From IMG/VR virus record IMGVR_UViG_3300046660_000306: a stretch of DNA of 36,208 bases; one strand, written 5' to 3'. The position numbers and the translations under genes are program-made. Shown here piece after piece: positions 1-36,208 of this stretch (the first letter of the stretch is position 1; the number at the start of each line of letters is the position of its first letter). The stretch is from a virus. The notes beneath the pieces are model-generated. The model did no database searches. It was not told where the DNA came from and worked only from the letters and a program-made list of their open reading frames with translations.

Positions 1-127
1 GGGGTTGCAGCCCCTCGGCACCACTTCCCGTTATTCCGTTACTTGGCGAGCCAGATCAGTACGTCTGGTACCTGTAGGGCAGTGACAGCGATCAATGCGA
101 CCGTCGCGATTGTGCTGAGCAGGTTGT
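1..127. repeat. Terminal exact direct repeat, copy 1 (identical to 36082-36208). This is the signature of a circular contig written with a 127-nt overlap.
   Basis: ggggttgcagcccctcggcacc...ctgagcaggttgt was read at both ends of the window. A hairpin and the minus-strand operon read straight through the junction. Confidence 0.9.
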
Positions 128-24552: not shown

Positions 24553-26310
24553 ATGAATGAAGCCGCTCACCCACCGATGGATACTCGCCGCCAGGCCAAG
24601 TTTTTGTACTGGACGGGTTGGCGCGTCACCGATATTGCCGACTTCCTGAGCGAGAAAGAGAAAACCATCCACTCCTGGAAGGCCCGCGACGACTGGGACC
24701 GGGCCGACAACGTCGAGCGCATTGGCGGCGCGTTGGAAGCCCGCTTGGTGCAACTGATCCTCAAGGAGGGCAAGTCCGGGGGCGACTTCAAGGAAATCGA
24801 TCTACTGCACCGGCAACTGGAGCGGCAGGCACGCATTCAGCGCTTCCAGGGTGGCGGGACCGAAACCGACCTCAATCCGAAGTTGGCCGCGCGCAACGCT
24901 GAACCGAAGAAACAACCCAAGCGTAACGACTTCTCCGAAGAAGACTTCGAGAAGTTGGAAGAGGCCTTTCGAGACGGTTGCTTTGAGTACCAGCTTGACT
25001 GGTACCGGTCGATGAACCAGCGCACCCGGATGCTGCTCAAGAGTCGGCAGATCGGGGCGACCTACTACTTCGCCCGTGAGGCCCTGATCGATGCGCTCAA
25101 GACCGGGCGGAACCAGATTTTTCTGTCCGCCAGCAAGGCTCAGGCCCACCAGTTCAAGAACTATATGCAGGCATTCGTCAGCGATGTGTTGGGCCGACAG
25201 CTGACGGGTGATCCGATCGTGCTGGCCAATGGCGCCGAGCTCCATTTTCTCGGGACCAACTACCGCACGGCGCAGGGCCGATCGGGCAACTTCTACTTTG
25301 ACGAATTCTTCTGGACCCACAAATTCGAGGAGCTCAACAAAGTCGCCTCGGGCATGGCGCTGCACAAGCACTGGCGCAAAACTTACTTTTCGACGCCTTC
25401 GAGCATGGCCCATGAAGCGTACAAGCTATGGACCGGCGAGCGTTTCAACAAGGGCAAACCGACCGCCCAACATCTCAAGCTGGATGTGAGCCACGACGCC
25501 TTGGGCCAGGGCCGGCTGTGCGAGGACCGTATCTGGCGCCAGATCGTTACGATCCTCGATGCCGAGCAACGTGGCTGCGATCTGTTCGACCTGGAAGAGC
25601 TGCGCTTCGAGTACAACCCCGAGCAATTCGCCAATTTGCTGATGTGCCAGTTTGTCGACGACGGCGCCTCGATCTTCCCGCTGCAAATGCTCCAGCCATG
25701 CATGGTCGATAGCTGGGTGGAGTGGGGCGAGGATTACAAACCGTTCGCCGCACGTCCCTTTGGCGATCGGCAGGTCTGGGTCGGCTACGACCCGGCCGAA
25801 ACCGGCGACAGCGCTGGGCTGATTGTCGTGGCGCCGCCGCTGGTACCGGGCGGCAAGTTCCGCGTGCTTGAGCGTCATCAGTTCCGGGGCATGGACTTCG
25901 CGGCGCAGGCTGAGGCCATCCGCCAGGTGACCAAACGCTACTGGGTGACCTACATCGGCGTCGACGTTACCGGTCTGGGCAGCGGCGTGGCCCAGCTGGT
26001 GCGCCAGTTCTTCCCGGCCGTCACCACGTTCAGTTACTCGCCCGAAGTGAAAACTCGTCTGGTGCTCAAGGCATACGACGTGATCAAGAACGGACGCCTG
26101 GAATTCGATGCCGGCTGGACCGATATGGCCTCCAGCCTGATGGCCATCCGCAAGACCATCACCGCCTCAGGGCGGCAGTTCACTTATACGGCCGGACGTA
26201 ATGACGAAACCGGTCACGCCGACTTGGCGTGGGCATTGTTCCACGCCCTGCACAACGAGCCGCTGGAAGGGCAGACCGCTGCCAACACCGGCATCATGGA
26301 GATTTGTTGA
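24553..26310 (+). CDS. P: Terminase large (ATPase) subunit P (P2 gpP)
   Basis: 585 aa. RQIGATYYFAREAL..A...G.NQIFLSASKAQA. Divergent from O as in P2. An alternative ATG at 24577 is possible. Confidence 0.9.
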   Translation: MNEAAHPPMDTRRQAKFLYWTGWRVTDIADFLSEKEKTIHSWKARDDWDRADNVERIGGALEARLVQLILKEGKSGGDFKEIDLLHRQLERQARIQRFQGGGTETDLNPKLAARNAEPKKQPKRNDFSEEDFEKLEEAFRDGCFEYQLDWYRSMNQRTRMLLKSRQIGATYYFAREALIDALKTGRNQIFLSASKAQAHQFKNYMQAFVSDVLGRQLTGDPIVLANGAELHFLGTNYRTAQGRSGNFYFDEFFWTHKFEELNKVASGMALHKHWRKTYFSTPSSMAHEAYKLWTGERFNKGKPTAQHLKLDVSHDALGQGRLCEDRIWRQIVTILDAEQRGCDLFDLEELRFEYNPEQFANLLMCQFVDDGASIFPLQMLQPCMVDSWVEWGEDYKPFAARPFGDRQVWVGYDPAETGDSAGLIVVAPPLVPGGKFRVLERHQFRGMDFAAQAEAIRQVTKRYWVTYIGVDVTGLGSGVAQLVRQFFPAVTTFSYSPEVKTRLVLKAYDVIKNGRLEFDAGWTDMASSLMAIRKTITASGRQFTYTAGRNDETGHADLAWALFHALHNEPLEGQTAANTGIMEIC

Positions 26311-27317
26311 TGACTACTGATCTGGTTGAGGCGCTGCCTGTGCAGAGTCAGGCCCATGCATTTACCTTCGGTGATCCGGTACCGGTGCTCGATGGCCGCG
26401 AGATCCTCGACTATCTGGAATGTTGGTCGAACGGGCGCTGGTACGAGCCGCCGCTGTCGCTGGATGGCTTGGCCAAGTCGACCCGGGCCAGTGTGTACCT
26501 GCAATCGGGTCTGAACTTCAAACGTAATGCGCTGGCCCGGACTTTCATTCCGCACAAATTGCTGAGCCGCCAGGCCTTCGAGCAGGTTGCCCTCGATTTC
26601 ATATGGTGTGGCAACACCTATCTGGAGAAACGCGACAACATGCTGCGTCAGGCGCTGGGGCTGTTGCCGGCGATGGCTAAGTTCGTGCGTCGTGGCATCG
26701 AGGAGGGGAGTTACTTCCAGGTGCGAGGTTGGCGCGACGAACACGAATTTCGCAAAGACAGCATCTGCCATTTGCGGGAGGCTGATATTAATCAGGAGAT
26801 CTACGGATTACCTGAGTGGCTGTCTGCACTGCAGAGCGCGCTGTTGAACGAGGCGGCGACTTTGTTCCGGCGCAAGTATTACCAGAACGGCAGTCATGCC
26901 GGCTTCATTCTGTACATGACCGACGCGGCACAGAACGAGGACTTCGTTACAGATCTGCGTAGCGCCATGAAGAGCAGCAAAGGCCCGGGCAACTTCCGCA
27001 ACCTTTTCATGTACGCACCTGGTGGGAAGAAAGACGGCATCCAGCTGATCCCCATCAGCGAGGTTGCGGCCAAGGATGACTTCGGCTCGATTAAAAACAT
27101 AAGTCGCGACGATCTGCTCGCGGCCTTACGTATTTATCCTCAACTGATGGGTATCGTGCCGCAGAACTCGGGGGGCTTTGGTTCGATGCGCGAAGCCGCC
27201 CAGGTCTGGGGGTTGAATGAACTGGAGCCGCTGCAGGCGCGCTTGCTGCAAATCAACGAATGGCTGGGCGAGGAGGTTATTCGCTTCAAGCCGTTTGAGT
27301 TAACGGCAGGGGGCTAA
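26310..27317 (+). CDS. Q: Portal protein Q (P2 gpQ)
   Basis: The ATG overlaps the P stop (TGATG). 335 aa starting MTTDLVEALPVQSQAHAFTFGDP. Confidence 0.9.
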   Translation: MTTDLVEALPVQSQAHAFTFGDPVPVLDGREILDYLECWSNGRWYEPPLSLDGLAKSTRASVYLQSGLNFKRNALARTFIPHKLLSRQAFEQVALDFIWCGNTYLEKRDNMLRQALGLLPAMAKFVRRGIEEGSYFQVRGWRDEHEFRKDSICHLREADINQEIYGLPEWLSALQSALLNEAATLFRRKYYQNGSHAGFILYMTDAAQNEDFVTDLRSAMKSSKGPGNFRNLFMYAPGGKKDGIQLIPISEVAAKDDFGSIKNISRDDLLAALRIYPQLMGIVPQNSGGFGSMREAAQVWGLNELEPLQARLLQINEWLGEEVIRFKPFELTAGG

Positions 27318-27371: not shown

Positions 27372-28031
27372 TCAATTCTGGATCTGAACATCTACGAGCA
27401 AATCTTTCGGCAGCTCGACCTTGGAAATCAGTGCGAGGTGGTATTCCTGCCCATCCTCTTCTGACCAAAGCTTATCCTCCAGTTCGTTGAGTGCTTCTTG
27501 ATCGTTGATTGGATCAAGTGTGGCATCCATCATCTGGTAGTAATAAACCTTAAGATCCAGAGCCAGAGCCCTGGACATCAGGCGTTGCCAGAAGAATTTC
27601 CCTTCATTTGTCTGATGATTATCAGACAGGATGACGTCGTAGCGCTCAAGAATGTAATTGAAGAACACATCCTGAGCGAGGTCACGCAACACCAGCTTAT
27701 GGGCGTCAGCTTGCGAACGCCACACAAGCATCTGCGTAGCCGGACGGCAATTCAAATCATGAATGGAAGAAACCATCACGCGGTTGAAATAGACCACGGA
27801 TTTTTCTACATCATTCAGCAGTGCAACATCGAATTCATGCACGTCGGGGGTTAACGCATCAATCCTCAATAGCCTGTAGCCAGGCGGAAGCGTATGCCTC
27901 GCTGCAGCGCTGATCTCAGTGAGATTCTCCGCAGTAGCGATTCGCTGATACAGGTGTGCATTGTCCGCCGTCCGCACCAAATGGGCGAATTCTTGACGAA
28001 TTACAGCTGGTCTAACGATCAGTTTAGGCAT
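27372..28031 (-). CDS. Orphan 219-aa protein of unknown function, located between portal and cos (cargo position). A TTG start at 28040 is possible.
   Basis: Long ORF in visibly AT-richer DNA than the flanking late genes. Convergent with Q. I recognise no motif. Confidence 0.7.
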   Translation of the reverse strand: MPKLIVRPAVIRQEFAHLVRTADNAHLYQRIATAENLTEISAAARHTLPPGYRLLRIDALTPDVHEFDVALLNDVEKSVVYFNRVMVSSIHDLNCRPATQMLVWRSQADAHKLVLRDLAQDVFFNYILERYDVILSDNHQTNEGKFFWQRLMSRALALDLKVYYYQMMDATLDPINDQEALNELEDKLWSEEDGQEYHLALISKVELPKDLLVDVQIQN

Positions 28032-28110
28032 GGCAACCAAGACATATGAGTGTCTAACGAAGATAAGTACGTAGAAAACGTGTGATAACTATATCAAGAG
28101 TCGCCCACAT

Positions 28111-28150
28111 ACCACAAGGATTCACAAGACTCCACAAGGGGTCACAAGGG
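28111..28150. repeat. Four tandem helically phased 10-bp repeats, nYCACAAGrn
   Basis: accacaagga ttcacaagac tccacaaggg gtcacaaggg. CACAAG occurs at 28113, 28123, 28133 and 28143. Confidence 0.85.
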
Positions 28151-28341
28151 TTCTAAATGTTGGGGCGGCCTTGCCTCAAGAGGTTGTCCTCACTATCGCC
28201 AGCATCGCAGCCTGTCTCTGTTAAGCCGCTAGCACCTGCCTCGATACCCTTTGATCTGTTCAATACACGCAGCGTCAACGACGTTGCACCGATGTGGTGC
28301 GACAAATGAGCGATGAAGTGTCTCTTCACTTGGCGCGCGCC

Positions 28342-28360
28342 GTCGTCCCCCCGCCACGCC
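28342..28360 (-). other. Candidate cos (cohesive end) sequence
   Basis: The minus strand reads GGCGTGGCGGGGGGACGAC. Its first 12 nt equal the 186 cohesive end GGCGTGGCGGGG as I remember it (P2: GGCGAGGCGGGGAAAGCAC). Orientation relative to Q matches P2. Confidence 0.55.
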
Positions 28361-28440
28361 TGCGGGCTAAATGTGTCGTTTTTTCTGCACCCCTGCACCC
28401 AGTTCAAGCCGGCCCAGCCCGGGGCTGTGTGCGTGAATAT

Positions 28441-28450
28441 GGGGGGGGGG
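28441..28450 (+). repeat. G10 homopolymer inside a G/T-rich strand-asymmetric tract (about 28390-28610)
   Basis: atat-gggggggggg-aagcc. Further G6 runs lie at about 28523 and 28577. Confidence 0.9.
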
Positions 28451-28505
28451 AAGCCTGCGAATCCCTGCGAGGGTGGGGTAATTCTGAGAGGTGGCTCGGG
28501 AAAAG

Positions 28506-28776
28506 GGTTAGTTTTTGAAAATGGGGGGAGAGGTGCTTTGCAAGTCCCGTGTTTACTGGGTTTGAGTCCTAACTTTGGGGGGTTAGTTATGGTTAGGTTT
28601 GAGGTAAGTAGTTCGTAAAATATTGATTTATAAGGGTTTTATTTATTGGTTTTTTAACGGTTATAAAGGTTAGGAAATTACCTCTCATAACCCTAAAGCT
28701 AACCTAGGGTACCCACCGCAAAGCCGCGCAGTACAAGCCTTTCAGAGCGATTAGCAAAAAACTAACCTTCCTAACC
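28506..28776. repeat. Iteron array: GGTTAG x4 (28506, 28581, 28591, 28668; plus GGTTAT at 28659) facing CTAACC x3 (28699, 28762, 28771; plus ATAACC at 28687), around an AT-rich core (28611-28660). Candidate replication origin.
   Basis: Hexamers counted by eye. Seven exact copies in 270 bp, with the orientation switching across gtaaaatattgatttataagggttttatttattggtttttt. No credible ORF. Confidence 0.5.
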
Positions 28777-28847
28777 TCTTTCCCGTGGGTCAACATGAAA
28801 AGCCGAAAGCACCTAGGGGGTGGGTGCTGGCAAAGGTCCATCTGATG

Positions 28848-28871
28848 TTGTGCATGCGCGCTGATGCACAA
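28848..28871. repeat. Inverted repeat ttgtgcat-N8-atgcacaa
   Basis: Perfect 8-bp arms read directly. Function unknown. Confidence 0.6.
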
Positions 28872-28890
28872 ACACTCCCAGGATTACAGT

Positions 28891-28914
28891 AACTGTCACC
28901 AAAACTGTCACCAG
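28891..28914. repeat. Tandem 12-bp repeat x2 (aactgtcaccaa / aactgtcaccag), arm-site-like, 46 bp from the att-like core A
   Basis: Same copy number, unit length and offset from the tRNA 3' end as the aaacggccccca x2 repeat beside the int-proximal attP. Confidence 0.6.
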
Positions 28915-28938
28915 CTCTGTGTCGCGTCGACTTGATAC

Positions 28939-29013
28939 CGCTGGAAGCCTTAAAAATAGTGGAGCGGGTGAATGGAATTGAACCCTCGTATCAGCTTGGA
29001 AAGCTTGTGTCGG
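28939..29013 (-). other. att-like site A: a diverged 3' fragment of a tRNA-Gly (UCC-type anticodon loop, degenerate T-stem) plus about 20 nt of shared flank
   Basis: Minus strand: ...caagctTTCCAAgctgatacgagggttcaattccattcacccgctcca. About 67/75 identical to 30258-30332. Confidence 0.7.
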
Positions 29014-29025
29014 TAGTGCTCGAAT

Positions 29026-29472
29026 TTACAAAAGACGAGGTTGGTGGAAATTGGTAGGGCCTTGGTACGCCGGTGCAGGAGTAGCAGGCACGGCCATCCC
29101 ATTGATCCGGATTAACATAGGGGTCAGCGCTCTGTTCTGAAAAACAGTGTGATTTTTACCCCAGTGGACGCTGATAACCCTCGGCTGGATTGATGTTCCA
29201 GCTTTAGGGAGGCCGTTTGGAACAACAGTTGTCGTACCGCTCGCCGTATATACCAATACCCAGTCGCCAACATTCACAAAGCCATGCCCAAACCACAGCA
29301 TGTGATCTCGTATTGGAGAAGTGGTGCCATCCACCGATGGCAATCCGAGAAAGAGGCAATACTCCCCTAGATCACAGGGCGCCTTAACATAGATTGCTAT
29401 GCGTTCGAGGTTAGGCACCCCATGATCAAACACATCCACGATCTGTAGATTTTCTATGGTGCCAATGCCCAT
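29026..29472 (-). CDS. Cassette gene 2: 148-aa soluble, apparently beta-rich protein of unknown function
   Basis: The ATG overlaps the upstream stop (TAATG). AT-rich. The pattern LQIVDV...ERIAIYV...GEYCLFLG...WFGHGF.NVGDWVLVYT is faintly reminiscent of lamin-tail/immunoglobulin-like sandwich domains, but this is a weak impression only. Confidence 0.7.
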   Translation of the reverse strand: MGIGTIENLQIVDVFDHGVPNLERIAIYVKAPCDLGEYCLFLGLPSVDGTTSPIRDHMLWFGHGFVNVGDWVLVYTASGTTTVVPNGLPKAGTSIQPRVISVHWGKNHTVFQNRALTPMLIRINGMAVPATPAPAYQGPTNFHQPRLL

Positions 29473-29972
29473 TAGCGCTTACCTCGACTGGGAATGAAAT
29501 TAGTCAGTAGCAAAAATGCTGCAAAGCCGAAAATCAGATAAGACGAATTGGGATTGTTCTTATAAACGTCTACGGCTATGGAGAACAAAAACGGGCTAAC
29601 GAAAGTGCATGCTCGTTGAGCAAGACCTAGCCTAAAATTTTGGTGGGATCGTTCCTCAAACCGAACGGTTTTGAGCTTTTCTTCGTTGAGTTCAGCGAGC
29701 GCTTGGTCGAGCTTGGACTGAGTTTCTTCAGCCAGAGCTTTTGCTCGATCCCTTTCGTTTACGAGATCGTTCACCCATGCGTCGAAAATACGAGCGCTTT
29801 GGGCTCCACCAAATTTACTAGGGTTCTCGTTTGCCAGACCTCGGAACGTATTCGGCAAAAGCTCTCCTGTCAGAGGCGGTGCCGTATCCGATTGGATGTC
29901 AGGGGTTCCGACTGTTTGGGTTCCGCTAACGCCGTTATCGTTTGGGTCTGGAGCGTCGCTGATTAGATTCAT
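29472..29972 (-). CDS. Cassette gene 1: 166-aa protein with a disordered N-terminus, a coiled coil and two C-terminal TM helices
   Basis: AGGAA lies 6 nt upstream of the ATG at 29972 (another ATG at 29978). ERDRAKALAEETQSKLDQALAELNEEKLK is the coiled coil. FVSPFLFSIAVDV and YLIFGFAAFLLLTNFI are hydrophobic. Confidence 0.7.
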   Translation of the reverse strand: MNLISDAPDPNDNGVSGTQTVGTPDIQSDTAPPLTGELLPNTFRGLANENPSKFGGAQSARIFDAWVNDLVNERDRAKALAEETQSKLDQALAELNEEKLKTVRFEERSHQNFRLGLAQRACTFVSPFLFSIAVDVYKNNPNSSYLIFGFAAFLLLTNFIPSRGKR

Positions 29973-30089
29973 AGCCATTTCCTGGAATGGTCGATCGTCC
30001 TACAGAGCCTTTCGAACTGAACCGGGAGCCCTAGGTACTTCGCGCCGGTCATGGCCGAATCTTTGTTACGTCACTTATTACGTATTGCG

Positions 30090-30123
30090 GATAAACGAAA
30101 GGCCCGCATTGCTGCGAGCCTTG
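30090..30123 (-). terminator. Hairpin plus T-rich tail directly downstream of the tRNA-Thr fragment (native tRNA terminator remnant)
   Basis: Minus strand aaggctcgc-agcaat-gcgggcctt followed by tcgttt. Confidence 0.5.
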
Positions 30124-30131
30124 GTTTTGTA

Positions 30132-30181
30132 TGGTGCCGGCACCAGGAGTCGAACCTGGGACCTACTGATTACAAGTCAGT
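30132..30181 (-). pseudogene. 3' fragment (anticodon stem to CCA) of a tRNA-Thr(UGU); the 5' half is absent
   Basis: Minus strand ACTGA-CTTGTAA-TCAGT aggtc CCAGG-TTCGACT-CCTGG TGCCGGC A CCA. The upstream sequence has no D-arm or acceptor. Confidence 0.8.
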
Positions 30182-30208
30182 AAGCTTTGCCTGGACATCC
30201 AAACATTG

Positions 30209-30232
30209 AAACGGCCCCCAAAACGGCCCCCA
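30209..30232. repeat. Tandem 12-bp repeat x2 (aaacggccccca): candidate integrase arm-type sites (P' arm)
   Basis: Perfect tandem repeat read directly, 46 bp from the tRNA-Gly 3' end. Confidence 0.65.
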
Positions 30233-30257
30233 ACTGATTGCAGTCAGGTACATGCAT

Positions 30258-30332
30258 CGCTGGAGGCCTTGAAAATAGTGGAGCGGGTGAAGGGAATCGA
30301 ACCCTCGTTATCAGCTTGGGAAGCTTGGGCGG
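30258..30332 (-). other. attP core: 3' portion of tRNA-Gly(CCC) from the anticodon loop to CCA, plus about 20 nt of flank
   Basis: Minus strand ...aagcTTCCCAAgctgataac GAGGG-TTCGATT-CCCTT CACCCGC T CCA. No 5' half. Adjacent to int. Confidence 0.8.
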
Positions 30333-30452
30333 ATGGTGTTTCAGATTGGCACCGGATGTATGCTTGTGTCCTGAAAAGCCCGCTACGACAGGGCTTTCAG
30401 GACAAGCAGCAATTTCAATGTGTTTCATCGGTTCACCCCATATTTCAGACAT

Positions 30453-30474
30453 ACAGCCCCCGGTAACAGCCCCC
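30453..30474. repeat. Direct repeat ACAGCCCCC x2 (30453-30461, 30466-30474): candidate arm-type sites (P arm)
   Basis: Shares GCCCCC with the 30209-30232 repeats and lies on the other side of the core, just before the int ATG. Confidence 0.55.
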
Positions 30475-30476
30475 AA

Positions 30477-31691
30477 ATGCTCACAGAGAAACAGATCAAG
30501 GCAATGAAGCCAGCGGAAAAGGAGTACACGGTCTCGGATGGGCGTACAGCCCGAGGTGAGGGCGTGCTGCTTCTGCGAGTGCGTCCGAACGGGACGAAGG
30601 AGTTCTACTTCCAGCGCTACAGCAGCGGCAAGAAGATCAAGAACAAGCTCGGCACCTGGCCAACGCTCGGTTTAGCTGACGCTCGGGACCTGTGCCGTGC
30701 TGAAAAGGAAGTGGTGGTTGCAGCCGGCACTTTTCAGGAAGTGATGGATGGCTACATCACCAAACTGTCGGGGGAGGGCGCAGCTTCCGTTGAGGATGTG
30801 AAGTGGTCTTTCAAGCACTACGTTTCCGAACCCTTCCCAAACCTGGTAAAGCTTCCGGCGGTTCTGATTGGACCAGGTGAAATACGGGACATCATTGCCA
30901 AGATGATCGCGAATGGTGTGACCACATACTGCAATCGACTGCGATCGCAGCTACACGCGGCTTTCCAGGTTGCCCTAGAGCAGGAGTTCAACCCTCGCAG
31001 TTATCAGAAAGACAATGTGAAGTTTGGGATCAAAAGCAACCCAGTGGCCAGCGTGCCCGTTCAAGCCGACTGGGAACAGCCAGGCGATCGGGCCTTGTCT
31101 GCAGCAGAACTTGCGCACCTCTGGCAAATGTTGCCGGAGCAATTGAGCGTGGTCACGTCAGAGCTGATCAAATTCTTGATCGCGTCAGGTGGGCAACGCC
31201 CGGAACAGCTGCTCGCAACCGAACGCCGGCACTACCTGAAAGATCACCTTATTATTCGCAACAAGAAGGGGCGAGGGGCTGAAGGAGAGCGCTCGTTGCA
31301 CGTCGTACCCTACAACAAATTGATGCGCCAGAGCCTTAAGACCATGGACGAAATCAATGCGATGAGCCTTTACCCTTTCGAGGGAAAAGTGCCGGATAGT
31401 TCGCTGCACGCAAACTCACTCTCCCGTGCAGTGACCAAGCTGTGCAGCCGACATCCAGACAAATTCAATGGCCCCTTTACCATGCGTGATTTGCGACGGA
31501 CCTGCAAAACGTTGATGGGCGCCGCAGGGCTGAACAAAGAGCTTAGAGATCGCATTCAGGGGCATGCGTTTAATGATGTATCTTCAAAGCATTATGATCG
31601 GTATGACTATTTTAAAGAAAAAAAGCACGGTCTGGATCGTTGGGCTATGTGGTTGCAGAAGAATGCTCTAGTAGCTAGTGTGAATATTTAA
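30477..31691 (+). CDS. int: Tyrosine integrase, P4/CP4-57 type (tRNA-targeting)
   Basis: N-terminus LTEKQIKAMKPAEKEYTVSDG...GLLLRVRPNGTKEFYFQRY (arm-binding domain). C-terminus MRDLRRTCKT...IQGHA...HYDRYDY (catalytic R...H-x-x-R...Y). Confidence 0.9.
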   Translation: MLTEKQIKAMKPAEKEYTVSDGRTARGEGVLLLRVRPNGTKEFYFQRYSSGKKIKNKLGTWPTLGLADARDLCRAEKEVVVAAGTFQEVMDGYITKLSGEGAASVEDVKWSFKHYVSEPFPNLVKLPAVLIGPGEIRDIIAKMIANGVTTYCNRLRSQLHAAFQVALEQEFNPRSYQKDNVKFGIKSNPVASVPVQADWEQPGDRALSAAELAHLWQMLPEQLSVVTSELIKFLIASGGQRPEQLLATERRHYLKDHLIIRNKKGRGAEGERSLHVVPYNKLMRQSLKTMDEINAMSLYPFEGKVPDSSLHANSLSRAVTKLCSRHPDKFNGPFTMRDLRRTCKTLMGAAGLNKELRDRIQGHAFNDVSSKHYDRYDYFKEKKHGLDRWAMWLQKNALVASVNI

Positions 31692-31716
31692 CAGTATTTG
31701 TCAGTAAGGGGGACGT

Positions 31717-32598
31717 ATGGTTGCTATTGATAAAGGTGAAGATGTTGATGGTGAGGCGGTGCTGCGCCGATATATGGATTTGGCTAAGTTCGCATCTCTA
31801 TTGCAAAGTCGCTCTATTTTTCATTGTAAAATGAGTGGCTTTGATGATGGGTTGGAAGGTGGCTTAACATCGAATGATTATTTGGCTTTTACGAATGAGT
31901 TGGCTCATTTTGATTTGGCGAGGGAGCTTTGGCCGGTGGTACAAGAAAGCCAAGAGCAGCGCCAAGTAAGGCTGGATAGGGTAGAGCGTATCAGATCTAT
32001 TGTTGATCAAGAAACATTTGAAACTATATTCGGGCCAATGCTAAAAAATGACGCAGTAGAGTATTTTGAGCGGGCCAGACGGTGGGTATATGTAAGCTGC
32101 TGGAACAAGGCTCAGACAGAGTGTGCGGGTATGTGGTCGTTGTATGGGGCAGATAATTCGATCTGTATCTGTACTACTGTTCATCAGGTTGCTAAGAATT
32201 TGCAGTTTGACGGATTAGAAGTTACCAATGCAGTAATGGCTGAGGTGGATTACTTAGATCATGGGGAGGGCTATTTTGCTGATCAAAAACTTGGCGCTTT
32301 TGTTTCAAAGGCTGAGCCATTTGGTTTTGAAAAGGAGGTTAGAATAATAGCTTGGGATGGTTCAAAGAATTATGGAGAGCTGGCTCAGGAAAATCCATGC
32401 GCAGGGTTTTTTAGCCGTGCTTTAGACCTTAATTTAATAATTAATAAAATTGTCGTGTCACCAAAGGCAGATAGTTGGTTTAAAGCGGTGGTGGAAAAAC
32501 TGTGCAATGTGTATGGGTTAAATGTAGCAATCGAACACTCTTCGTTGCTTTCCCCTCGTATCTCACACTTAACTGATACGAGTCTATTTCGCAAATGA
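31717..32598 (+). CDS. DUF2971-like protein (293 aa), AT-rich cargo immediately downstream of int
   Basis: AGGGGGA RBS. N-terminal segment LRRYMDLAKFASLLQSRSIFHCKMSGFDDGLEG, and later WVYVSCWNK...ECAGMWSLYG, match my memory of DUF2971 motifs. Confidence 0.8.
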   Translation: MVAIDKGEDVDGEAVLRRYMDLAKFASLLQSRSIFHCKMSGFDDGLEGGLTSNDYLAFTNELAHFDLARELWPVVQESQEQRQVRLDRVERIRSIVDQETFETIFGPMLKNDAVEYFERARRWVYVSCWNKAQTECAGMWSLYGADNSICICTTVHQVAKNLQFDGLEVTNAVMAEVDYLDHGEGYFADQKLGAFVSKAEPFGFEKEVRIIAWDGSKNYGELAQENPCAGFFSRALDLNLIINKIVVSPKADSWFKAVVEKLCNVYGLNVAIEHSSLLSPRISHLTDTSLFRK

Positions 32599-32611
32599 TC
32601 GGATAGGCCGT

Positions 32612-32782
32612 CTATGCGGCCTCTGTGGTGGTCTGCCATGTTTCGAACGCTGATTCCCGCCAGCCAACGTGTCCGGCAGAAATCACCACGGACTTAGGAA
32701 GCCTATCTCGTTTAATCTTCAGCCAGAGTGTAGTCCGGGAAGGCGAGGTGACGCTCAATACCTCTTTCTCTCCCTGATTCAA
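32612..32782 (-). CDS. AlpA-family (MerR-like HTH) paralogue 1. N-terminally shortened or degenerate, with a possible TTG start coupled to the upstream stop (TTGA).
   Basis: GEKEVLSVTSPSRTTLWLKIKRDRLPKSVVISAGHVGWRESAFETWQ parallels the 33917-34129 protein. No clean ATG or RBS, so it may be a pseudogene. Confidence 0.45.
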   Translation of the reverse strand: MNQGEKEVLSVTSPSRTTLWLKIKRDRLPKSVVISAGHVGWRESAFETWQTTTEAA

Positions 32783-33786
32783 GTGGAGGACGGGGGGGCG
32801 TGTTTTTCCAGTATCCAGTTGGTGAAAGCTATGCGGCATATTTGCTCAATTCCAGAGTTCATATGGTAAGCCTTCCAGTCACTATCAGCCCAGCCTGTCG
32901 GTATATGTTCGCCTAGAAAGAGAGCGCCAGCATGAAGTATTTTTGAGCGCTGGCCATACGCTTTCTTATAGAACTTTATTAGCTCTTCTGAGTCTGAGCT
33001 ATACTTTGTAAGGAAGTCTGTGAATTTTCTTGTGGTGGAGTAGCGTGGCGCACTGCACTCTTTGCATTTCTCAATTTTGATTCCTTTATTGATATGGTCA
33101 ACAAGTGATTCTATTGAGGAAACAAAGCAAGCAAAAGATATGGAGGGTGATATTGGTTTTATTCTTATCGCGTTGTTGAATAAGGTTGCCGATTTCAAAA
33201 AAGCGTTTTTGTTGTCTTGGTCTAGGCTGTAGTAAGCATCCAGAATGTCGCTGAGTAAGTCCGGGACGGAAAAGTCAGAACCGACAAATCTTCCGCCAAG
33301 TCCATAAGATTCAGAAGTGTTGATTTCGTCAACGTTCGAGACTGAAGAGTTTGTAAAGTCGCTGATTTCGTGCTTGTGTTCTTGAACAAAGTAGGAGAGT
33401 TGACGCCACTCTGGTTCTGTTGCAAGGTTGGTATCTGTGCTGATGGTCCAGCTATGGTTGTCTTGTGTATAAACGAACTTTGAAAAAGAGAATACGGCAA
33501 ATAAGCTGGTTATTTCGCGAGTTATTTTTTTCTCATGGTCTTGTCTTTGTATCCAGTCGGGAACCTCTGTTTGGTCAGGCATTTTCTTGCTTGGGTCGGG
33601 GGCGAAGTTGTATTTTACTTCTAGAAGACAAGGGTGGTGCGCCTCAAGATAAGGTGCGCGAGGGAAGTTGTCAGGTGCTGGTAATATCTGAAAAATTTCC
33701 CTGTATTTGTATTTTCCAGTGACGTTGGCATTTGTGAGCATGATAAAACTTCTAAATGTTTTCGTCATAAGTTTGCCTGTTTCCAT
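32779..33786 (-). CDS. 335-aa protein with an unknown N-terminal domain and a C-terminal HEPN-like domain (R-x4-H). The start is uncertain (33786, 33768 or 33741).
   Basis: SSIESLV helix followed by YGQRSKILHAG (R284-x4-H289 of the track ORF, nt 32932-32949). AT-rich (sampled lines about 35-47% GC against more than 60% in the late genes). Confidence 0.75.
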   Translation of the reverse strand: METGKLMTKTFRSFIMLTNANVTGKYKYREIFQILPAPDNFPRAPYLEAHHPCLLEVKYNFAPDPSKKMPDQTEVPDWIQRQDHEKKITREITSLFAVFSFSKFVYTQDNHSWTISTDTNLATEPEWRQLSYFVQEHKHEISDFTNSSVSNVDEINTSESYGLGGRFVGSDFSVPDLLSDILDAYYSLDQDNKNAFLKSATLFNNAIRIKPISPSISFACFVSSIESLVDHINKGIKIEKCKECSAPRYSTTRKFTDFLTKYSSDSEELIKFYKKAYGQRSKILHAGALFLGEHIPTGWADSDWKAYHMNSGIEQICRIAFTNWILEKHAPPSST

Positions 33787-33916
33787 AGGTGTTGGCAAAG
33801 TGGTAGGTTTATTGTTTTGGGCTGGGCCACTCTAACATCCGAATAGCCACCTGTATAAACCGAGAAGCCATACATAGTGTAGCTGCAGTTTGTATCGCAT
33901 AAATAGATGAGGCCGC

Positions 33917-34129
33917 TTACGCGGCCTCGGTGGTGTTAACTTGCCAGTTTTGGGGACTGGCTTGCCATGCTTCGATAGCTGATTCCCTCCAGCCAACCCG
34001 GCCTGCGGAAATCACCACAGACTTTGGAAATCTGCCACGTTTGATCTCCCTCCATAGTGTGGTTCGGGAGAATGAGGTGACGTCCAATACCTCCTTCTCC
34101 CGCATGAACCGATCAAGCTTTCTTGTCAT
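33917..34129 (-). CDS. AlpA-family HTH protein (excisionase / transcriptional regulator type)
   Basis: REKEVLDVTSFSRTTLWREIKRGRFPKSVVISAGRVGWRESAIEAWQ. The ATG overlaps the methyltransferase stop (ATGA). Confidence 0.8.
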   Translation of the reverse strand: MTRKLDRFMREKEVLDVTSFSRTTLWREIKRGRFPKSVVISAGRVGWRESAIEAWQASPQNWQVNTTEAA

Positions 34130-35799
34130 GGGGCCTCCTGTTGAGCAACGCTCAGACCGACAGCCACAGGCCGAACCCAGATAGGCATGCTGTTGAGCAT
34201 GAACGTTTCGCCCGCGGCGGCCAACAGTAAGGTGGTGCCCATTACGTGGGCGATTGCCTCAGCAGCTTTTGGTGGTACCGCGTTGCCGATCCGTTCGCGC
34301 CAGGCCTGATCGCTCAGTCCATCCAGTTCGAACTGTTCCTCCGGATCAACCAAGCTTTGCAGCGAGGCCAGCTCCAGCGTGGTGAACGGCCGGTGCCAGG
34401 TGCCGTCGAGGCTTTCAATTACGCAGGTCAACCGGTCATTGGCTTCCGGCATGCGCGGATCAGCGACCGACCAACGCCCGTTGTCCTGCTTGGCACTCGC
34501 CGAAACGGCGCCACATTGATCGTTCCATCCAACAACGCCGTAATGGCCGCCAGTCAGGTAGGCATCACCCTTCACGCGTTTCATACCTGGGCGGGGGTCC
34601 TGCACGGCGAAGGCTCCCTGACCAGTGGTGCTGCCGGCGATGACAGTTCCTGTCGACTTATCCCACGGTGACACCAGGTACTTGCCGAACCCTTCACCAG
34701 CTCGGCGCGGGTCGGCAACGCTAAATGTTCCTTGCCCGGGCGATTTCACGCCGATGACGGCTCCGCTCGTTTCGTCCCAGCGACGAACGCCGTACTGCTG
34801 GTATTGCAGGGCGCCGGCCTTGGCGCGTGGATCTGCTACCGAGAACGCACCATTTGTTGGGCTGTTGCGGCCAGCGACCGTACCGGCGGTATCGCGCCAA
34901 TTATGCACGCCGAGATAGCCGGCTCGGTACTCGGGAACAATGACCAGATCACGCAGATAGCCGTCCTCGATCGCCAAGTCATTCAGGCTGCGCCAGTCTT
35001 TGCCGGCGGTGACAAGAGCGAGGCGAACCCATGTTTTCCATTGCAGCGCTGGTACTCGGTGCATCGGGCCGGCGGCTTCGACATCACCAGCCAGGGGCAT
35101 GCGGCCGAGAATTGAGCCGACAGACTTCAGCGTCTTTTTCTCCGGTTCGTACAGGAACGGCGGCACCTTCTCGATATGGCGGGCCACCAACAGGAAACGC
35201 TTGCGGCTCTGGGCCAGGCCACCGATGACGCCGCAATCGTGGGTGGTTTCTGCGACGGCGTAGCCATAGTGGCCCAGTAGCTTGTTGATCTGGTCCAGCA
35301 GATGGCGCCCGCGAGTGGCCAGGCGCGGAACGTTCTCGAATACCAGCAGCGGGACCGGGTCGTTCTTCCAAGCTTCGCACATCAGCCAGATACAGCGCAG
35401 CGTCAGTTCGTTCAGGGCCTGGTACTTCGGCGTCATGCTCATTGTTTCGGACAGCAGGCCCGAGGCGCCTTTGCAAGGGCTGGAAATGAACACAGCGTCA
35501 GGCCGCTCGTTGTTAGCAGCGCGGCGCAGGTCTTCGGCGCTCGCTTCGCTCCAGCCTGCCGGCGGCTCTTTGCCGTGGAAGCGGGTGTACTGGTCACGGT
35601 TGAACAGGTCCATCAGCGTGCCGCGCACACCGGACAGTCGTTCGAAATCGCGCAGCCCGGCCGGGTCAACGTCAACTCCGCCGATGCACTGCCATTCGGC
35701 TTGGATGTTGCCCACGATTGGCTTGGCACTGTTGAAACCCTTGGCGCCGCCACCGAGGCCGCAGCACATATGAAAGTGTTTGAGCGTGCGCTTAAGCAT
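34126..35799 (-). CDS. DNA (cytosine-5) methyltransferase with a four-fold repeated target-recognition region (557 aa from the ATG at 35799)
   Basis: Motif I HMCCGLGGG, IV SSPCKGAS, VI LVFENVP, VIII QSRKR, X GNAVPP. No adjacent restriction endonuclease. Confidence 0.85.
   Translation of the reverse strand: MLKRTLKHFHMCCGLGGGAKGFNSAKPIVGNIQAEWQCIGGVDVDPAGLRDFERLSGVRGTLMDLFNRDQYTRFHGKEPPAGWSEASAEDLRRAANNERPDAVFISSPCKGASGLLSETMSMTPKYQALNELTLRCIWLMCEAWKNDPVPLLVFENVPRLATRGRHLLDQINKLLGHYGYAVAETTHDCGVIGGLAQSRKRFLLVARHIEKVPPFLYEPEKKTLKSVGSILGRMPLAGDVEAAGPMHRVPALQWKTWVRLALVTAGKDWRSLNDLAIEDGYLRDLVIVPEYRAGYLGVHNWRDTAGTVAGRNSPTNGAFSVADPRAKAGALQYQQYGVRRWDETSGAVIGVKSPGQGTFSVADPRRAGEGFGKYLVSPWDKSTGTVIAGSTTGQGAFAVQDPRPGMKRVKGDAYLTGGHYGVVGWNDQCGAVSASAKQDNGRWSVADPRMPEANDRLTCVIESLDGTWHRPFTTLELASLQSLVDPEEQFELDGLSDQAWRERIGNAVPPKAAEAIAHVMGTTLLLAAAGETFMLNSMPIWVRPVAVGLSVAQQEAP
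34453..34917 (-). repeat. Four tandem ~30-aa protein repeats, Y(G/L)V..W.(D/N)..G(A/T)V...........G.(F/W)(S/A)V(A/Q)DPR, within the methyltransferase variable region
   Basis: YLGVHNWRDTAGTVAGRNSPTNGAFSVADPR / YGVRRWDETSGAVIGVKSPGQGTFSVADPR / YLVSPWDKSTGTVIAGSTTGQGAFAVQDPR / YGVVGWNDQCGAVSASAKQDNGRWSVADPR. Confidence 0.85.
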
Positions 35800-36049
35800 A
35801 ACGACGCCCCTTCGCTTGTTTGGATGCTGCTTTTTCTGCCAGGAGGGCAGCCCACTCCGAGGACTTGCGTTGCTGTCTGAGACGACTGCAGTTTTGGTGC
35901 TTACGTGTGGAGCGAGCTTTTCCGCAGATATCGCAGATGCTGGGTAGGTCAAGTCGATGGCTAGCCATTGTGGGGCGAGTTCTAGAGCCGGGAGTGGCTG
36001 TGTTCGTGATAGCCTCGGCGTTGCCATCGTTGTGGGTTTGAGCTTGCAT
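35792..36049 (-). CDS. 85-aa basic protein with a C-x2-C-x8-H-x2-C knuckle, translationally coupled to the methyltransferase
   Basis: GGAGAGAACC RBS. CDICGKARSTRKHQNC. Its stop overlaps the MTase start (ATGCTTAA). Confidence 0.6.
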   Translation of the reverse strand: MQAQTHNDGNAEAITNTATPGSRTRPTMASHRLDLPSICDICGKARSTRKHQNCSRLRQQRKSSEWAALLAEKAASKQAKGRRYA

Positions 36050-36098
36050 GGTTCTCTCCTTTCAGTGGTGGTCGGTGTCGAGGGGTTGCAGCCCCTCG
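36047..36098 (-). repeat. Leader repeat copy 2: hairpin cgagggg-ttgcag-cccctcg (36079-36098) plus the conserved block accactgaaaggagagaaccATGca
   Basis: See 174-213. The hairpin spans the circular junction. Confidence 0.7.
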
Positions 36099-36208
36099 GC
36101 ACCACTTCCCGTTATTCCGTTACTTGGCGAGCCAGATCAGTACGTCTGGTACCTGTAGGGCAGTGACAGCGATCAATGCGACCGTCGCGATTGTGCTGAG
36201 CAGGTTGT
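36082..36208. repeat. Terminal exact direct repeat, copy 2 (duplicate of 1-127)
   Basis: The same 127 nt as the window start. The unit length is therefore 36,081 bp. Confidence 0.9.

What the first reader, a model, noticed from the sequence alone, without database searches (positions are those of the whole stretch)
29026..29978. AT-rich two-gene cassette (coiled-coil 2-TM protein plus small beta-rich partner) inserted beside attP: candidate novel defence / abortive-infection pair
Two translationally coupled genes (TAATG overlap) sit in DNA that is clearly AT-richer than the phage backbone. They lie between cos and attP, which in a P2-type genome is the tin/old-equivalent cargo hotspot.

Gene 1 has a low-complexity N-terminus, a heptad-like coiled coil and two C-terminal TM helices, the layout of many membrane-disrupting Abi effectors. 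Gene 2 is a 148-aa soluble protein I cannot assign to a family.

Neither gene has any role in the otherwise complete P2 gene set. The pair is bracketed by att-like repeats, which implies acquisition as a unit.
Basis: partly seen in the sequence, partly recalled or inferred. Interest (0 to 1): 0.8.

Follow-up and report, generated by a model that had tools for sequence, protein, structure and literature searches.

The report
Unknown two-gene cargo in prophage hotspot
A Pseudomonas phage of the P2/phiCTX type carries, next to its integration site, two tightly coupled genes of unknown function (a membrane-anchored coiled-coil protein and a small beta-sandwich protein); the pair also occurs in distant bacteria, sometimes beside known anti-phage genes, so it is a reasonable but untested candidate for a new defence system.

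Summary
Two ORFs on the minus strand (29472-29978 and 29026-29472) share a TAATG overlap. They are AT-richer than the backbone (GC 0.49 against 0.61) and evolve under strong purifying selection (dN/dS about 0.1). They lie between cos (28341-28361) and attP of a circular phiCTX-like Pseudomonas phage genome of about 36.1 kb.

Gene 1 has a disordered N-terminus with a conserved D-x-G-x-x-G-x-Q motif, a coiled coil and a C-terminal two-helix hydrophobic hairpin. Gene 2 is a cytoplasmic beta-sandwich whose predicted fold is closest to the lamin tail Ig-like domain. This resemblance is at fold level only.

Neither protein matches Pfam, NCBIfam, PHROGs or PADLOC. Gene 2 has at least 602 clusters (50% identity) of relatives. 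A gene-1-like partner is intact upstream in 26 of 28 loci examined, from Pseudomonas to Desulfobaccales, Binatia and Rhodobacterales.

In Pseudomonas the pair sits beside tRNA-Thr at the edge of P2-like prophages and survives prophage decay. In 4 of 9 distant loci a known defence gene lies within 6 kb.

The defence reading is plausible by position, architecture and association, but it is untested. The repeats that bracket the pair are a duplicated tRNA-Gly-type attP, and a remnant of a tRNA-Thr-type attP lies inside them.

The parts
29472..29978 (-). Gene 1: 166-168 aa (probable start ATG at 29972). It has a disordered N-terminus with a conserved P-x-P-D-x-G-V-x-G-x-Q motif, a PL-x-G-E and FGG segment, a coiled coil, a C-terminal two-helix hydrophobic hairpin and a basic tail.
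   Evidence: ORF. AF2 gives disorder at 1-40 and helices at 59-141 and 143-161, mean pLDDT 66. Hydropathy. Alignment of 27 partners from 27 loci. dN/dS 0.07-0.13. No Pfam, NCBIfam, PHROGs or PADLOC family, apart from one weak PADLOC match (ZorA3, E 1.3e-3, coiled coil only) and generic coiled-coil matches elsewhere.
29026..29472 (-). Gene 2: a 148-aa cytoplasmic beta-sandwich protein with no signal peptide. The predicted fold is closest to the lamin-tail Ig-like domain. Family motifs are G-V-P-N-x-E-R-I, D-H-M-L-W-F-G, G-D-W-x-x-V-Y-T and H-W-G-K-x-x-T-x-F.
   Evidence: ORF. AF2 mean pLDDT 82, pTM 0.72, 8 strands. Foldseek top 9 of 10 PDB hits are lamin A/C or B1 Ig domains (E 1.3e-2 to 3.4e-2, prob 0.92-1.0, TM 0.35-0.56). 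Relatives: 29 clusters at 90% identity and 602 clusters at 50% identity. No Pfam family in 29 + 145 members.
29979..30098 (-). Upstream region of gene 1, which must hold its promoter. The sequence is not conserved among relatives except for the RBS and start (CCAGGGAATGGCnATGAA).
   Evidence: Alignment of seven upstream regions. The consensus scan found no sigma-70 site on this strand.
30099..30122 (-). Terminator-like hairpin directly after the tRNA-Thr 3' fragment. It is conserved in all relatives with the tRNA-Thr att, so read-through from the tRNA into gene 1 is unlikely.
30063..30083 (-). Two copies of ACGTAA(C/T)AA, conserved in every tRNA-Thr-type att arm, including phages that lack the pair. 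They are presumed arm-type binding sites of the lost Thr-type integrase (inference).
   Evidence: Homology of Sirocco and UFJF_PfPro ends at 30063.
30128..30194 (-). 3' part of tRNA-Thr(TGT), about 52 nt identical to the host tRNA, with the D-arm missing. It is a remnant of a tRNA-Thr-type attP core.
   Evidence: Rfam tRNA 30135-30194, 33.3 bits, D-arm deleted. ARAGORN finds no tRNA. Relatives have the intact tRNA-Thr at this position.
30258..30338 (-). Repeat copy B: the attP core of this phage's own integrase. It resembles the 3' half of tRNA-Gly(CCC) and includes 21 nt of the cos-side arm.
   Evidence: Eleven IMG/VR relatives of the integrase carry the same core next to int, and two of them have an intact tRNA-Gly(CCC) beside it.
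28939..29018 (-). Repeat copy A: a degenerate duplicate of the same attP core plus 21 nt, beginning 7 nt after the gene 2 stop. It continues into the cos-side arm.
   Evidence: The equivalent copy in the related contig L053 is 97% identical to copy B.
28341..28361 (-). cos site, matching 20 of 21 bases of the phiCTX cohesive end.
   Evidence: The same 20-mer lies 0.5-0.75 kb after gene 2 in L006, L014, L016, L023 and L028.
30420..31691 (+). Tyrosine integrase with an Arm-DNA-bind_3 N-terminus. It is unrelated to the Thr-type integrase of UFJF_PfPro.

Best explanation
The two genes form a self-contained, horizontally mobile two-gene module. Here the module is accessory cargo in the attP-cos part of the cos-proximal hotspot of a circular phiCTX/P2-like Pseudomonas phage.

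Shown:
- The genes are real, translationally coupled and under purifying selection.
- The pairing of a coiled-coil protein with a two-helix hydrophobic hairpin and a small beta-sandwich protein is conserved from Pseudomonas to Desulfobacterota, Binatia and Alphaproteobacteria.
- In Pseudomonas the module sits at the attL edge of P2-like prophages beside tRNA-Thr. It stays intact when the rest of the prophage decays.
- Related phages carry other genes in this slot.

Inferred, and my preferred mechanism: the module is expressed from the prophage and protects the lysogen against other phages, by superinfection exclusion or abortive infection.
- The cytoplasmic beta-sandwich protein (gene 2) would act as the sensor or regulator. 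It may dock on the conserved N-terminal linear motif of gene 1.
- Gene 1 would be the effector. Its coiled coil would drive oligomerisation, and its C-terminal hairpin, which ends in a conserved acidic or polar residue, would perturb the inner membrane once released or activated.

The functional logic would resemble lambda RexA/RexB or the mycobacteriophage gp30/gp31 pairs, without any homology to them.
For: Real genes and coupling. Overlaps of 1 or 4 nt also occur in relatives.

Co-occurrence: an intact partner with the same architecture lies directly upstream in 26 of 28 loci. The two exceptions are an IS insertion (L035) and a frameshift (L036).

Cargo status:
- Relatives with the same att carry unrelated genes in the slot.
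- Gene 2 is absent from 50,697 GenBank phages and 72,556 plasmids.
- GC is low.

Hotspot: the pair lies between the homologue of phiCTX orf37 (replication) and the portal gene, next to cos. This is the interval defined as the P2 defence hotspot (PMC9122126). Other cargo in the same interval:
- PDC-S31 in the window.
- A DUF4238 protein in strain R84. DUF4238 is a validated P2-hotspot defence gene.
- HicAB and Fic genes.

Retention in decayed prophages: L010, L012 and L014.

Defence neighbours in distant lineages:
- L031: type I MTase/specificity fusion with mad2/mad3 hits.
- L034: type III REase.
- L036: Avs2, confirmed against PDB 9o4e.
- One locus with a HEC-01A/B pair, most likely L032.

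Architecture: a membrane hairpin plus a soluble partner.
Against: - There is no homology to any known defence, Abi, toxin or holin family. The only PADLOC match is ZorA3 at E 1.3e-3, confined to the coiled coil.
- Five of the nine distant loci are flanked only by housekeeping genes: class II RNR, gyrB/parE-like, mutS, hydrogenase. L020 is likewise flanked by EF-G and a MotB-like gene.
- The defence association rests on nine loci only. The expected background rate comes from my own knowledge, not from a computation here.
- No expression data exist, and no recognisable promoter was found.
- The gene 1 model has low confidence (pLDDT 66). Membrane insertion is inferred from hydropathy alone.
- The interaction between the two proteins is inferred only from gene order and coupling.
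Confidence: 0.4

Rival explanations
1. Addiction or toxin-antitoxin-like module. Gene 1 would be a small membrane toxin, a hairpin that depolarises the membrane. Gene 2 would be its co-translated protein antidote. The pair would stabilise the prophage end or island rather than sense phages.
For: The pair persists intact next to tRNA-Thr when the prophage has decayed. Translational coupling is tight. The genes are small, and the distribution is patchy and points to horizontal transfer. Bona fide TA pairs (HicAB) share the same slot.
Against: No TA family hit was found. In L035 gene 2 survives without gene 1 after an IS insertion. In L036 gene 1 is frameshifted. Both cases fit either model. The long conserved N-terminal motif and coiled coil of gene 1 are more elaborate than typical small membrane toxins. 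TA and Abi functions are not mutually exclusive.
Confidence: 0.15
2. Lysogenic-conversion or host-fitness module unrelated to phage defence. An inner-membrane scaffold and a cytoplasmic adaptor would alter envelope stress handling, motility, secretion or another host trait. Such a module would be a moron in the sense of ctx in phiCTX.
For: The ctx-type moron slot is adjacent in phiCTX. Many distant loci are embedded among housekeeping genes with no mobile-element signature. The gene 1 profile matches Vipp1/PspA weakly (E 2e-3), probably through coiled-coil composition.
Against: Nothing points to a specific host pathway. Neighbours differ in every lineage, which argues against a role in any one conserved process. 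Defence genes neighbour the pair in 4 of 9 distant loci.
Confidence: 0.2
3. Accessory function in the carrier phage's own life cycle, for example membrane-associated control of lysis timing, DNA entry or exit, or prophage induction.
For: The order att - pair - cos is conserved in at least six phiCTX-like phage or prophage sequences, with cos 0.5-0.75 kb after gene 2. Gene 1 has a holin-like two-helix hairpin.
Against: The pair is absent from phiCTX, Sirocco, UFJF_PfPro, Dobby and all other GenBank phages. It is present in many genomes with no phage genes nearby. It is kept when the prophage is dead. There is no PHROGs hit.
Confidence: 0.08

Closest known systems
Lambda RexA/RexB, and the mycobacteriophage Butters and Sbash gp30/gp31 prophage-mediated defence pairs (from my own knowledge of the literature; not retrieved here)
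   Same: These are two-gene, prophage-borne modules that encode one membrane protein and one cytoplasmic partner. They are accessory to the phage. The mycobacteriophage pairs lie near attP-int.
   Different: No sequence or profile similarity was found; PADLOC, Pfam and PHROGs are all negative. RexB has four transmembrane helices. Gene 1 has a C-terminal two-helix hairpin preceded by a coiled coil and a conserved N-terminal linear motif. No phenotype is known for the pair.
old/tin hotspot cargo of P2-like phages (Rousset et al. 2022, PMC9122126)
   Same: The genomic interval is the same in principle: cos-proximal, between the replication gene and the portal gene. Content varies between related phages. 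A DUF4238 gene, validated there as a defence gene, occurs in the same interval of the R84 prophage.
   Different: In this phiCTX-type layout, int and attP lie inside the interval, and the pair sits between attP and cos. None of the systems reported in that paper (as modelled in PADLOC) matches. The host is Pseudomonas, not E. coli.
ctx moron of phiCTX
   Same: It is accessory, AT-rich cargo next to cos in the closest well-described phage genome.
   Different: ctx lies between cos and the portal gene. In the window that slot holds the 222-aa phrog_1349 ORF. The pair lies on the other side of cos. ctx encodes a cytotoxin (record annotation), whereas these proteins are predicted to be cytoplasmic and inner-membrane.
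Lamin tail domain (LTD, Ig-like beta-sandwich; Pfam PF00932)
   Same: The predicted fold of gene 2 is closest to the lamin A/C and B1 Ig-like domains. Nine of the ten best Foldseek PDB hits are such domains.
   Different: The Pfam LTD model matches none of 174 family members at E up to 10 or 0.01. hhalign of the family profile against the lamin A domain gives probability 0.1. TM-scores are only 0.35-0.56. Bacterial LTDs are described in the papers found here as parts of large extracellular proteins such as the nuclease ExeM (PMC6085458). They are not stand-alone cytoplasmic proteins.

Membership tests
Lamin tail domain (Pfam LTD, PF00932) | Significant match to the family profile | tested here: not met
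   No LTD hit for the window protein, for 29 close members (E up to 10) or for 145 diverse members (E up to 0.01).
Lamin tail domain (Pfam LTD, PF00932) | Profile-to-sequence similarity to a solved LTD (lamin A Ig domain) | tested here: not met
   hhalign of A3 against lamin A 430-544 gives probability 0.1. The identity of the lamin sequence was verified against PDB. The family profile has no PDB hit.
Lamin tail domain (Pfam LTD, PF00932) | Ig-like beta-sandwich fold superimposable on LTD structures | tested here: inconclusive
   Foldseek gives E 1.3e-2 to 3.4e-2, prob 0.92-1.0 and TM 0.35-0.56 to 1ifr, 7crg, 6ghd and 3jt0. This is a consistent top family but with modest scores, and the query is a predicted model (pLDDT 82).
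Known or candidate anti-phage systems in PADLOC-DB v2 | HMM match of either protein to a system component | tested here: not met
   Gene 2 has no hit. Gene 1 has only ZorA3 at E 1.3e-3, 15 bits, residues 61-122 (coiled coil).
Defence system in the operational sense (defence-island association) | Family members are enriched next to known defence genes in unrelated genomes | tested here: inconclusive
   Four of nine distant GTDB loci have a recognised defence gene within 6 kb: MADS/type I R-M, type III REase, Avs2 and HEC-01. The sample is small and no computed background is available.
Defence system in the operational sense | Protection against phage when expressed | not testable with these tools
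   This needs an experiment.
P2-like cos-proximal hotspot cargo (PMC9122126) | Located between the replication gene and the portal gene, next to cos, with content that varies among related phages | tested here: met
   cos lies at 28341-28361, the portal gene at 26229-27317 and the replication homologue at 543-3350 across the circular junction. Sirocco and UFJF_PfPro carry other genes in the slot.
Type II toxin-antitoxin modules | Match to a known toxin or antitoxin family | tested here: not met
   Pfam, NCBIfam and PADLOC are negative.
Phage holins and lysis proteins | Match to a holin family, or location in the lysis cassette | tested here: not met
   There is no PHROGs or Pfam hit. Endolysin homology of the backbone lies about 9 kb away, at about window 19.6-20.8 kb.

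The most novel reading that the evidence does not exclude
The pair is the founding example of an undescribed, widespread two-gene anti-phage system. The gene 2 family alone has at least 602 clusters at 50% identity and spans several phyla. A stand-alone cytoplasmic beta-sandwich with a lamin-tail-like fold would sense infection. It would then release or activate a coiled-coil protein that carries a conserved N-terminal D-x-G-x-x-G-x-Q motif and a C-terminal membrane hairpin, leading to membrane-level exclusion or abortive infection. The system would spread on P2/phiCTX-like phages by riding next to the attachment site.
Probability: 0.35. Interest if true: 0.7.

Novelty: new variant of a known kind. 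Interest (0 to 1): 0.55.

Why it matters
If the pair is a defence system, it adds a new and taxonomically broad family to the bacterial immune repertoire. Its sensor fold, lamin-tail-like, has not been linked to immunity in the literature searched here. The effector layout is simple, small and easy to dissect.

The locus also gives a clean natural example of how cargo is passed between temperate phages at attachment sites. A remnant of one attP (tRNA-Thr type) and its adjacent cargo are embedded in a duplicated attP of another integrase (tRNA-Gly type).

If the pair is not a defence system, it is still a conserved, unannotated two-protein module. It is found in hundreds of lineages and merits a family definition.

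Tried and rejected
- Family searches. Pfam, NCBIfam, PHROGs and PADLOC scans of both proteins gave nothing usable. The same holds for 29 and 145 gene 2 relatives and for 20 gene 1 relatives.
- PDB sequence and profile searches gave only noise for gene 2 and coiled-coil hits for gene 1.
- Structure searches. Foldseek of the low-confidence gene 1 model returned only ATP-synthase c-subunit hairpins and helical bundles at E above 2, which is uninformative. BFVD gave only partial domain matches in large phage proteins.
- LTD test. hhalign against lamin A did not support sequence-level LTD membership.
Distant genomic contexts therefore come only from the 13 loci that A1 reached.
- tblastn of three family members against GenBank phages and plasmids found nothing.
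- I first guessed that the HEC-01 pair was in L030. A PDB search showed that ORF is a NiFe hydrogenase subunit. A Walker-A scan points to L032 instead.
- I considered that the tRNA promoter drives the pair in the lysogen. A conserved terminator hairpin sits between the tRNA fragment and gene 1, so this is unlikely.
- I considered a conserved third gene and rejected it. Neighbours differ in every lineage.
- Literature searches for lamin tail domain together with anti-phage terms found no relevant paper.
Full report
WHAT IS THERE

The window has an exact 127-nt terminal direct repeat, so it is a circularly assembled genome of about 36,081 bp. It is a P2/phiCTX-type Pseudomonas phage:
- It shows about 73% nucleotide identity to vB_PaeM-D14A and Dobby over tail, baseplate and lysis genes.
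- The portal gene lies at 26229-27317.
- The 935-aa ORF at 543-3350 is 56% identical to the phiCTX orf37 replication protein.
- The phiCTX cohesive-end 21-mer occurs at 28341-28361 with a single mismatch.

The two ORFs of the finding are present exactly as described, at 29472..29978 and 29026..29472 on the minus strand. The TAA stop of the first and the ATG start of the second share base 29472. Relatives begin at MNL, and an AGGA lies 7 nt before the second ATG, so gene 1 probably starts at 29972.

GC content is 0.494 in the cassette and 0.608 in the structural block. The cassette belongs to a longer low-GC accessory block, 27372-33798.

Against four Pseudomonas orthologues, dN/dS is 0.07-0.13 for both genes, with saturated dS. 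Both genes therefore encode proteins under constraint.

THE PROTEINS

Gene 1:
- AlphaFold2 (9 sequences, mean pLDDT 66) gives a disordered stretch at residues 1-40, one long helix at 59-141 and a second helix at 143-161.
- Hydropathy shows two hydrophobic 17-mers at about 121-139 and 144-162, followed by a basic tail.
- An alignment of 27 partners from 27 loci shows a nearly invariant N-terminal motif, P-x-P-(D/E)-x-G-(V/A/S)-x-G-x-Q. It also shows a PL-x-G segment, an FGG segment, a heptad region ending in (R/V)LEER, and a conserved D, E or Q right after the first hydrophobic helix.
- Only generic coiled-coil matches were found: ZorA3 at E 1.3e-3, Vipp1 at 2e-3, the lamin rod and Lpp. The structure search was uninformative.

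Gene 2:
- AlphaFold2 (29 sequences) gives an eight-strand beta protein with mean pLDDT 82 and pTM 0.72.
- Nine of the ten best Foldseek PDB hits are lamin A/C or lamin B1 Ig-like tail domains, with E 1.3e-2 to 3.4e-2, probability 0.92-1.0 and TM 0.35-0.56.
- The Pfam LTD model matches none of 174 family members. hhalign of the family profile against the lamin A domain finds nothing (lamin sequence verified).
- I therefore call it a beta-sandwich with a lamin-tail-like fold, not a member of the LTD family.
- It has no signal peptide.

No Pfam, NCBIfam, PHROGs or PADLOC family covers either protein.

HOW WIDESPREAD, AND DO THE GENES TRAVEL TOGETHER

Close relatives are few and mostly from Pseudomonas: 29 clusters at 90% identity for gene 2 and 9 for gene 1. 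A full profile search found much more. It returned 602 clusters at 50% identity with E up to 1e-3, of which 261 have E up to 1e-10; the 150 best listed are mostly stand-alone proteins of about 130-190 aa (range 80-266).

I examined 28 loci. In 26 of them an ORF with the gene 1 architecture lies directly upstream of gene 2, overlapping it or abutting it. The two exceptions are:
- L035, where an IS5-like transposase ORF occupies the place of gene 1.
- L036, where gene 1 looks frameshifted.

The loci include MAGs or genomes of Desulfobaccales, Binatia, Syntrophobacterales, Rhodospirillales, Woeseiaceae, Roseovarius and Ruegeria. No third gene is conserved. The unit is a two-gene module.

CONTEXT IN PSEUDOMONAS

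In Pseudomonas sp. R84, Pseudomonas sp. Wu6, P. iridis, P. lutea and several MAGs, the pair lies immediately downstream of the intact chromosomal tRNA-Thr(TGT). This is beside an ABC-transporter and Methyltransf_32 locus, at the edge of a P2-like prophage or its remnant.

Nucleotide homology to the window runs from inside the tRNA (window 30181), through a conserved arm and both genes, to about 29051.

In L010, L012 and L014 the prophage is largely gone but the pair is intact.

Six metagenomic or IMG/VR phage contigs carry the pair within 0.8 kb of the contig end. In five relatives the phiCTX-type cos 20-mer lies 0.5-0.75 kb after gene 2, as it does in the window.

By contrast, the phages Sirocco and UFJF_PfPro share the tRNA-Thr att arm but carry unrelated genes in the slot. 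No GenBank phage or PLSDB plasmid encodes a detectable gene 2 homologue.

The slot lies inside the interval from the replication gene to the portal gene, next to cos. Rousset et al. identified this interval as the old/tin defence hotspot of P2-like phages (PMC9122126). In phiCTX the order is int - attP - cos - ctx - Q. In the window the 222-aa phrog_1349 ORF occupies the ctx position, and the pair lies between attP and cos.

Other cargo in the same interval:
- A PDC-S31 homologue in the window.
- A DUF4238 protein in R84. DUF4238 is a validated P2-hotspot defence gene.
- HicAB, Fic and Lar-like genes.

THE ATT-LIKE REPEATS

The repeats are real: 28939-29018 and 30258-30338. They resemble the 3' half of tRNA-Gly.

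The window's integrase is unrelated to the Thr-type integrase of UFJF_PfPro. Its eleven IMG/VR relatives (72-95% amino-acid identity) all carry the same core next to int. Two of them have an intact tRNA-Gly(CCC) beside it. Copy B is therefore the attP of this phage.

Alignment shows the following:
- Copy B consists of the int-side arm, the core and 21 nt of the cos-side arm.
- Copy A consists of the end of gene 2, a core with five changes, and the same 21 nt continuing toward cos.

The segment between them (29019-30257) holds three things:
- Gene 2 and gene 1.
- A terminator hairpin (30099-30122) and two ACGTAA(C/T)AA arm repeats.
- A tRNA-Thr fragment that lacks the D-arm (Rfam 33 bits; no ARAGORN call).

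That combination is a remnant of a Thr-type attP. So a piece of a Thr-integrating relative (attP plus cargo) sits inside a roughly 70-nt duplication of the Gly-type attP.

An independent Logan contig (L052) is 100% identical across the junction of gene 2 and copy A. A 73%-identical relative (L053) also has a Gly core right after gene 2, and that core is 97% identical to copy B. The arrangement is therefore real and older than this particular genome.

Integrase-mediated recombination between att sites of two phages is the simplest origin. This is an inference. The order of events cannot be resolved from these data.

DEFENCE ASSOCIATION

Among nine phylogenetically distant GTDB loci, four have a recognised defence gene within 6 kb:
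- L031: a type I MTase/specificity fusion with mad2 and mad3 hits.
- L034: a type III restriction enzyme immediately upstream.
- L036: Avs2, 1.1 kb downstream (PADLOC 5.7e-224; PDB 9o4e 5.5e-67).
- One locus with a HEC-01A/B pair, assigned to L032 by a Walker-A motif and ORF sizes.

The other five loci are flanked by housekeeping genes: class II RNR, gyrB/parE-like, mutS and hydrogenase. L020, which is not one of the nine, is likewise flanked by EF-G. From my own knowledge, random gene families lie near defence genes far less often than 4 in 9. With nine loci and no computed control, this is suggestive only.

MECHANISM

I commit to a prophage-expressed anti-phage module. The soluble beta-sandwich protein would act as sensor or regulator. 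The coiled-coil hairpin protein would act as an oligomerising membrane effector. The logic is comparable to RexAB or to the mycobacteriophage gp30/gp31 pairs.

Shown:
- The genes are real and coupled, and the pairing is conserved.
- The pair is cargo in a hotspot.
- The pair is retained after prophage decay.
- Some neighbours are defence genes.

Inferred:
- Membrane insertion of gene 1.
- Interaction between the two proteins.
- Any sensing or killing step.

Rivals are a TA-like addiction module (0.15), a host-fitness moron unrelated to phages (0.2) and a role in the carrier phage's own cycle (0.08). The last is weakened by the many phage-free loci and by absence of the pair from all cultured relatives.

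VERDICT

The protein families are undescribed in the libraries searched. The kind of system, a two-gene prophage cargo with a membrane protein and a soluble partner, is familiar. Interest is 0.55.

Noticed in passing
window 1-127 and 36082-36208: An exact 127-nt terminal direct repeat shows that the contig is a circular assembly of a complete genome of about 36,081 bp.
   Followed up: yes
window 32629-32770 and 33958-34099: A 142-nt direct repeat (77% identity, spacing 1329 nt) brackets the AT-rich 339-aa ORF at 32779-33798 (-), which has no family hit. Relatives of the integrase module have the two segments overlapping, so they lack this ORF. This is a second repeat-bracketed cargo insertion, of almost the same size as the one holding the pair.
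   Followed up: partly
window 31717-32598 (+): A 293-aa protein directly after the integrase matches the PADLOC candidate defence family PDC-S31 (8e-12) and phrog_34615. Its GC is 0.42. It is conserved with the integrase in L039.
   Followed up: partly
window 27372-28040 (-): A 222-aa ORF of unknown function (phrog_1349, 1.5e-34) occupies the position between cos and the portal gene. In phiCTX that position holds the cytotoxin gene ctx.
   Followed up: partly
window 28341-28361 (-): The cos site matches the phiCTX cohesive end in 20 of 21 bases. The same 20-mer is found in L006, L014, L016, L023 and L028.
   Followed up: yes
window 34126-36105 (-): A 659-aa C5 cytosine DNA methyltransferase (Pfam DNA_methylase; phrog_32684 and phrog_116) lies in the accessory region between the replication gene and the integrase.
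   Followed up: no
L052-L055 (Logan contigs), first bases: Three of four independent short contigs that carry the pair begin at window-equivalent positions 30153-30155, inside the tRNA-Thr fragment. This is most likely an assembly break at a sequence shared with host tRNA genes.
   Followed up: no
L035 5333-5803; L036 5513-5998 and 7556-11887: In a Woeseiaceae MAG, an IS5-like transposase ORF replaces gene 1 upstream of an intact gene 2. In a Pseudomonadales MAG, gene 1 appears frameshifted and an Avs2 gene lies 1.1 kb downstream.
   Followed up: partly
L037 3316-5436 and L038 3273-5441: In Roseovarius and Ruegeria the pair directly follows a full-length gyrB/parE-like gene. In L038 the two appear to overlap by 4 nt. 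In L038 this gene is preceded by a 939-aa protein with HSDR_N, AAA and S1 domains. It was not resolved whether this is a conserved chromosomal site or a larger module.
   Followed up: no
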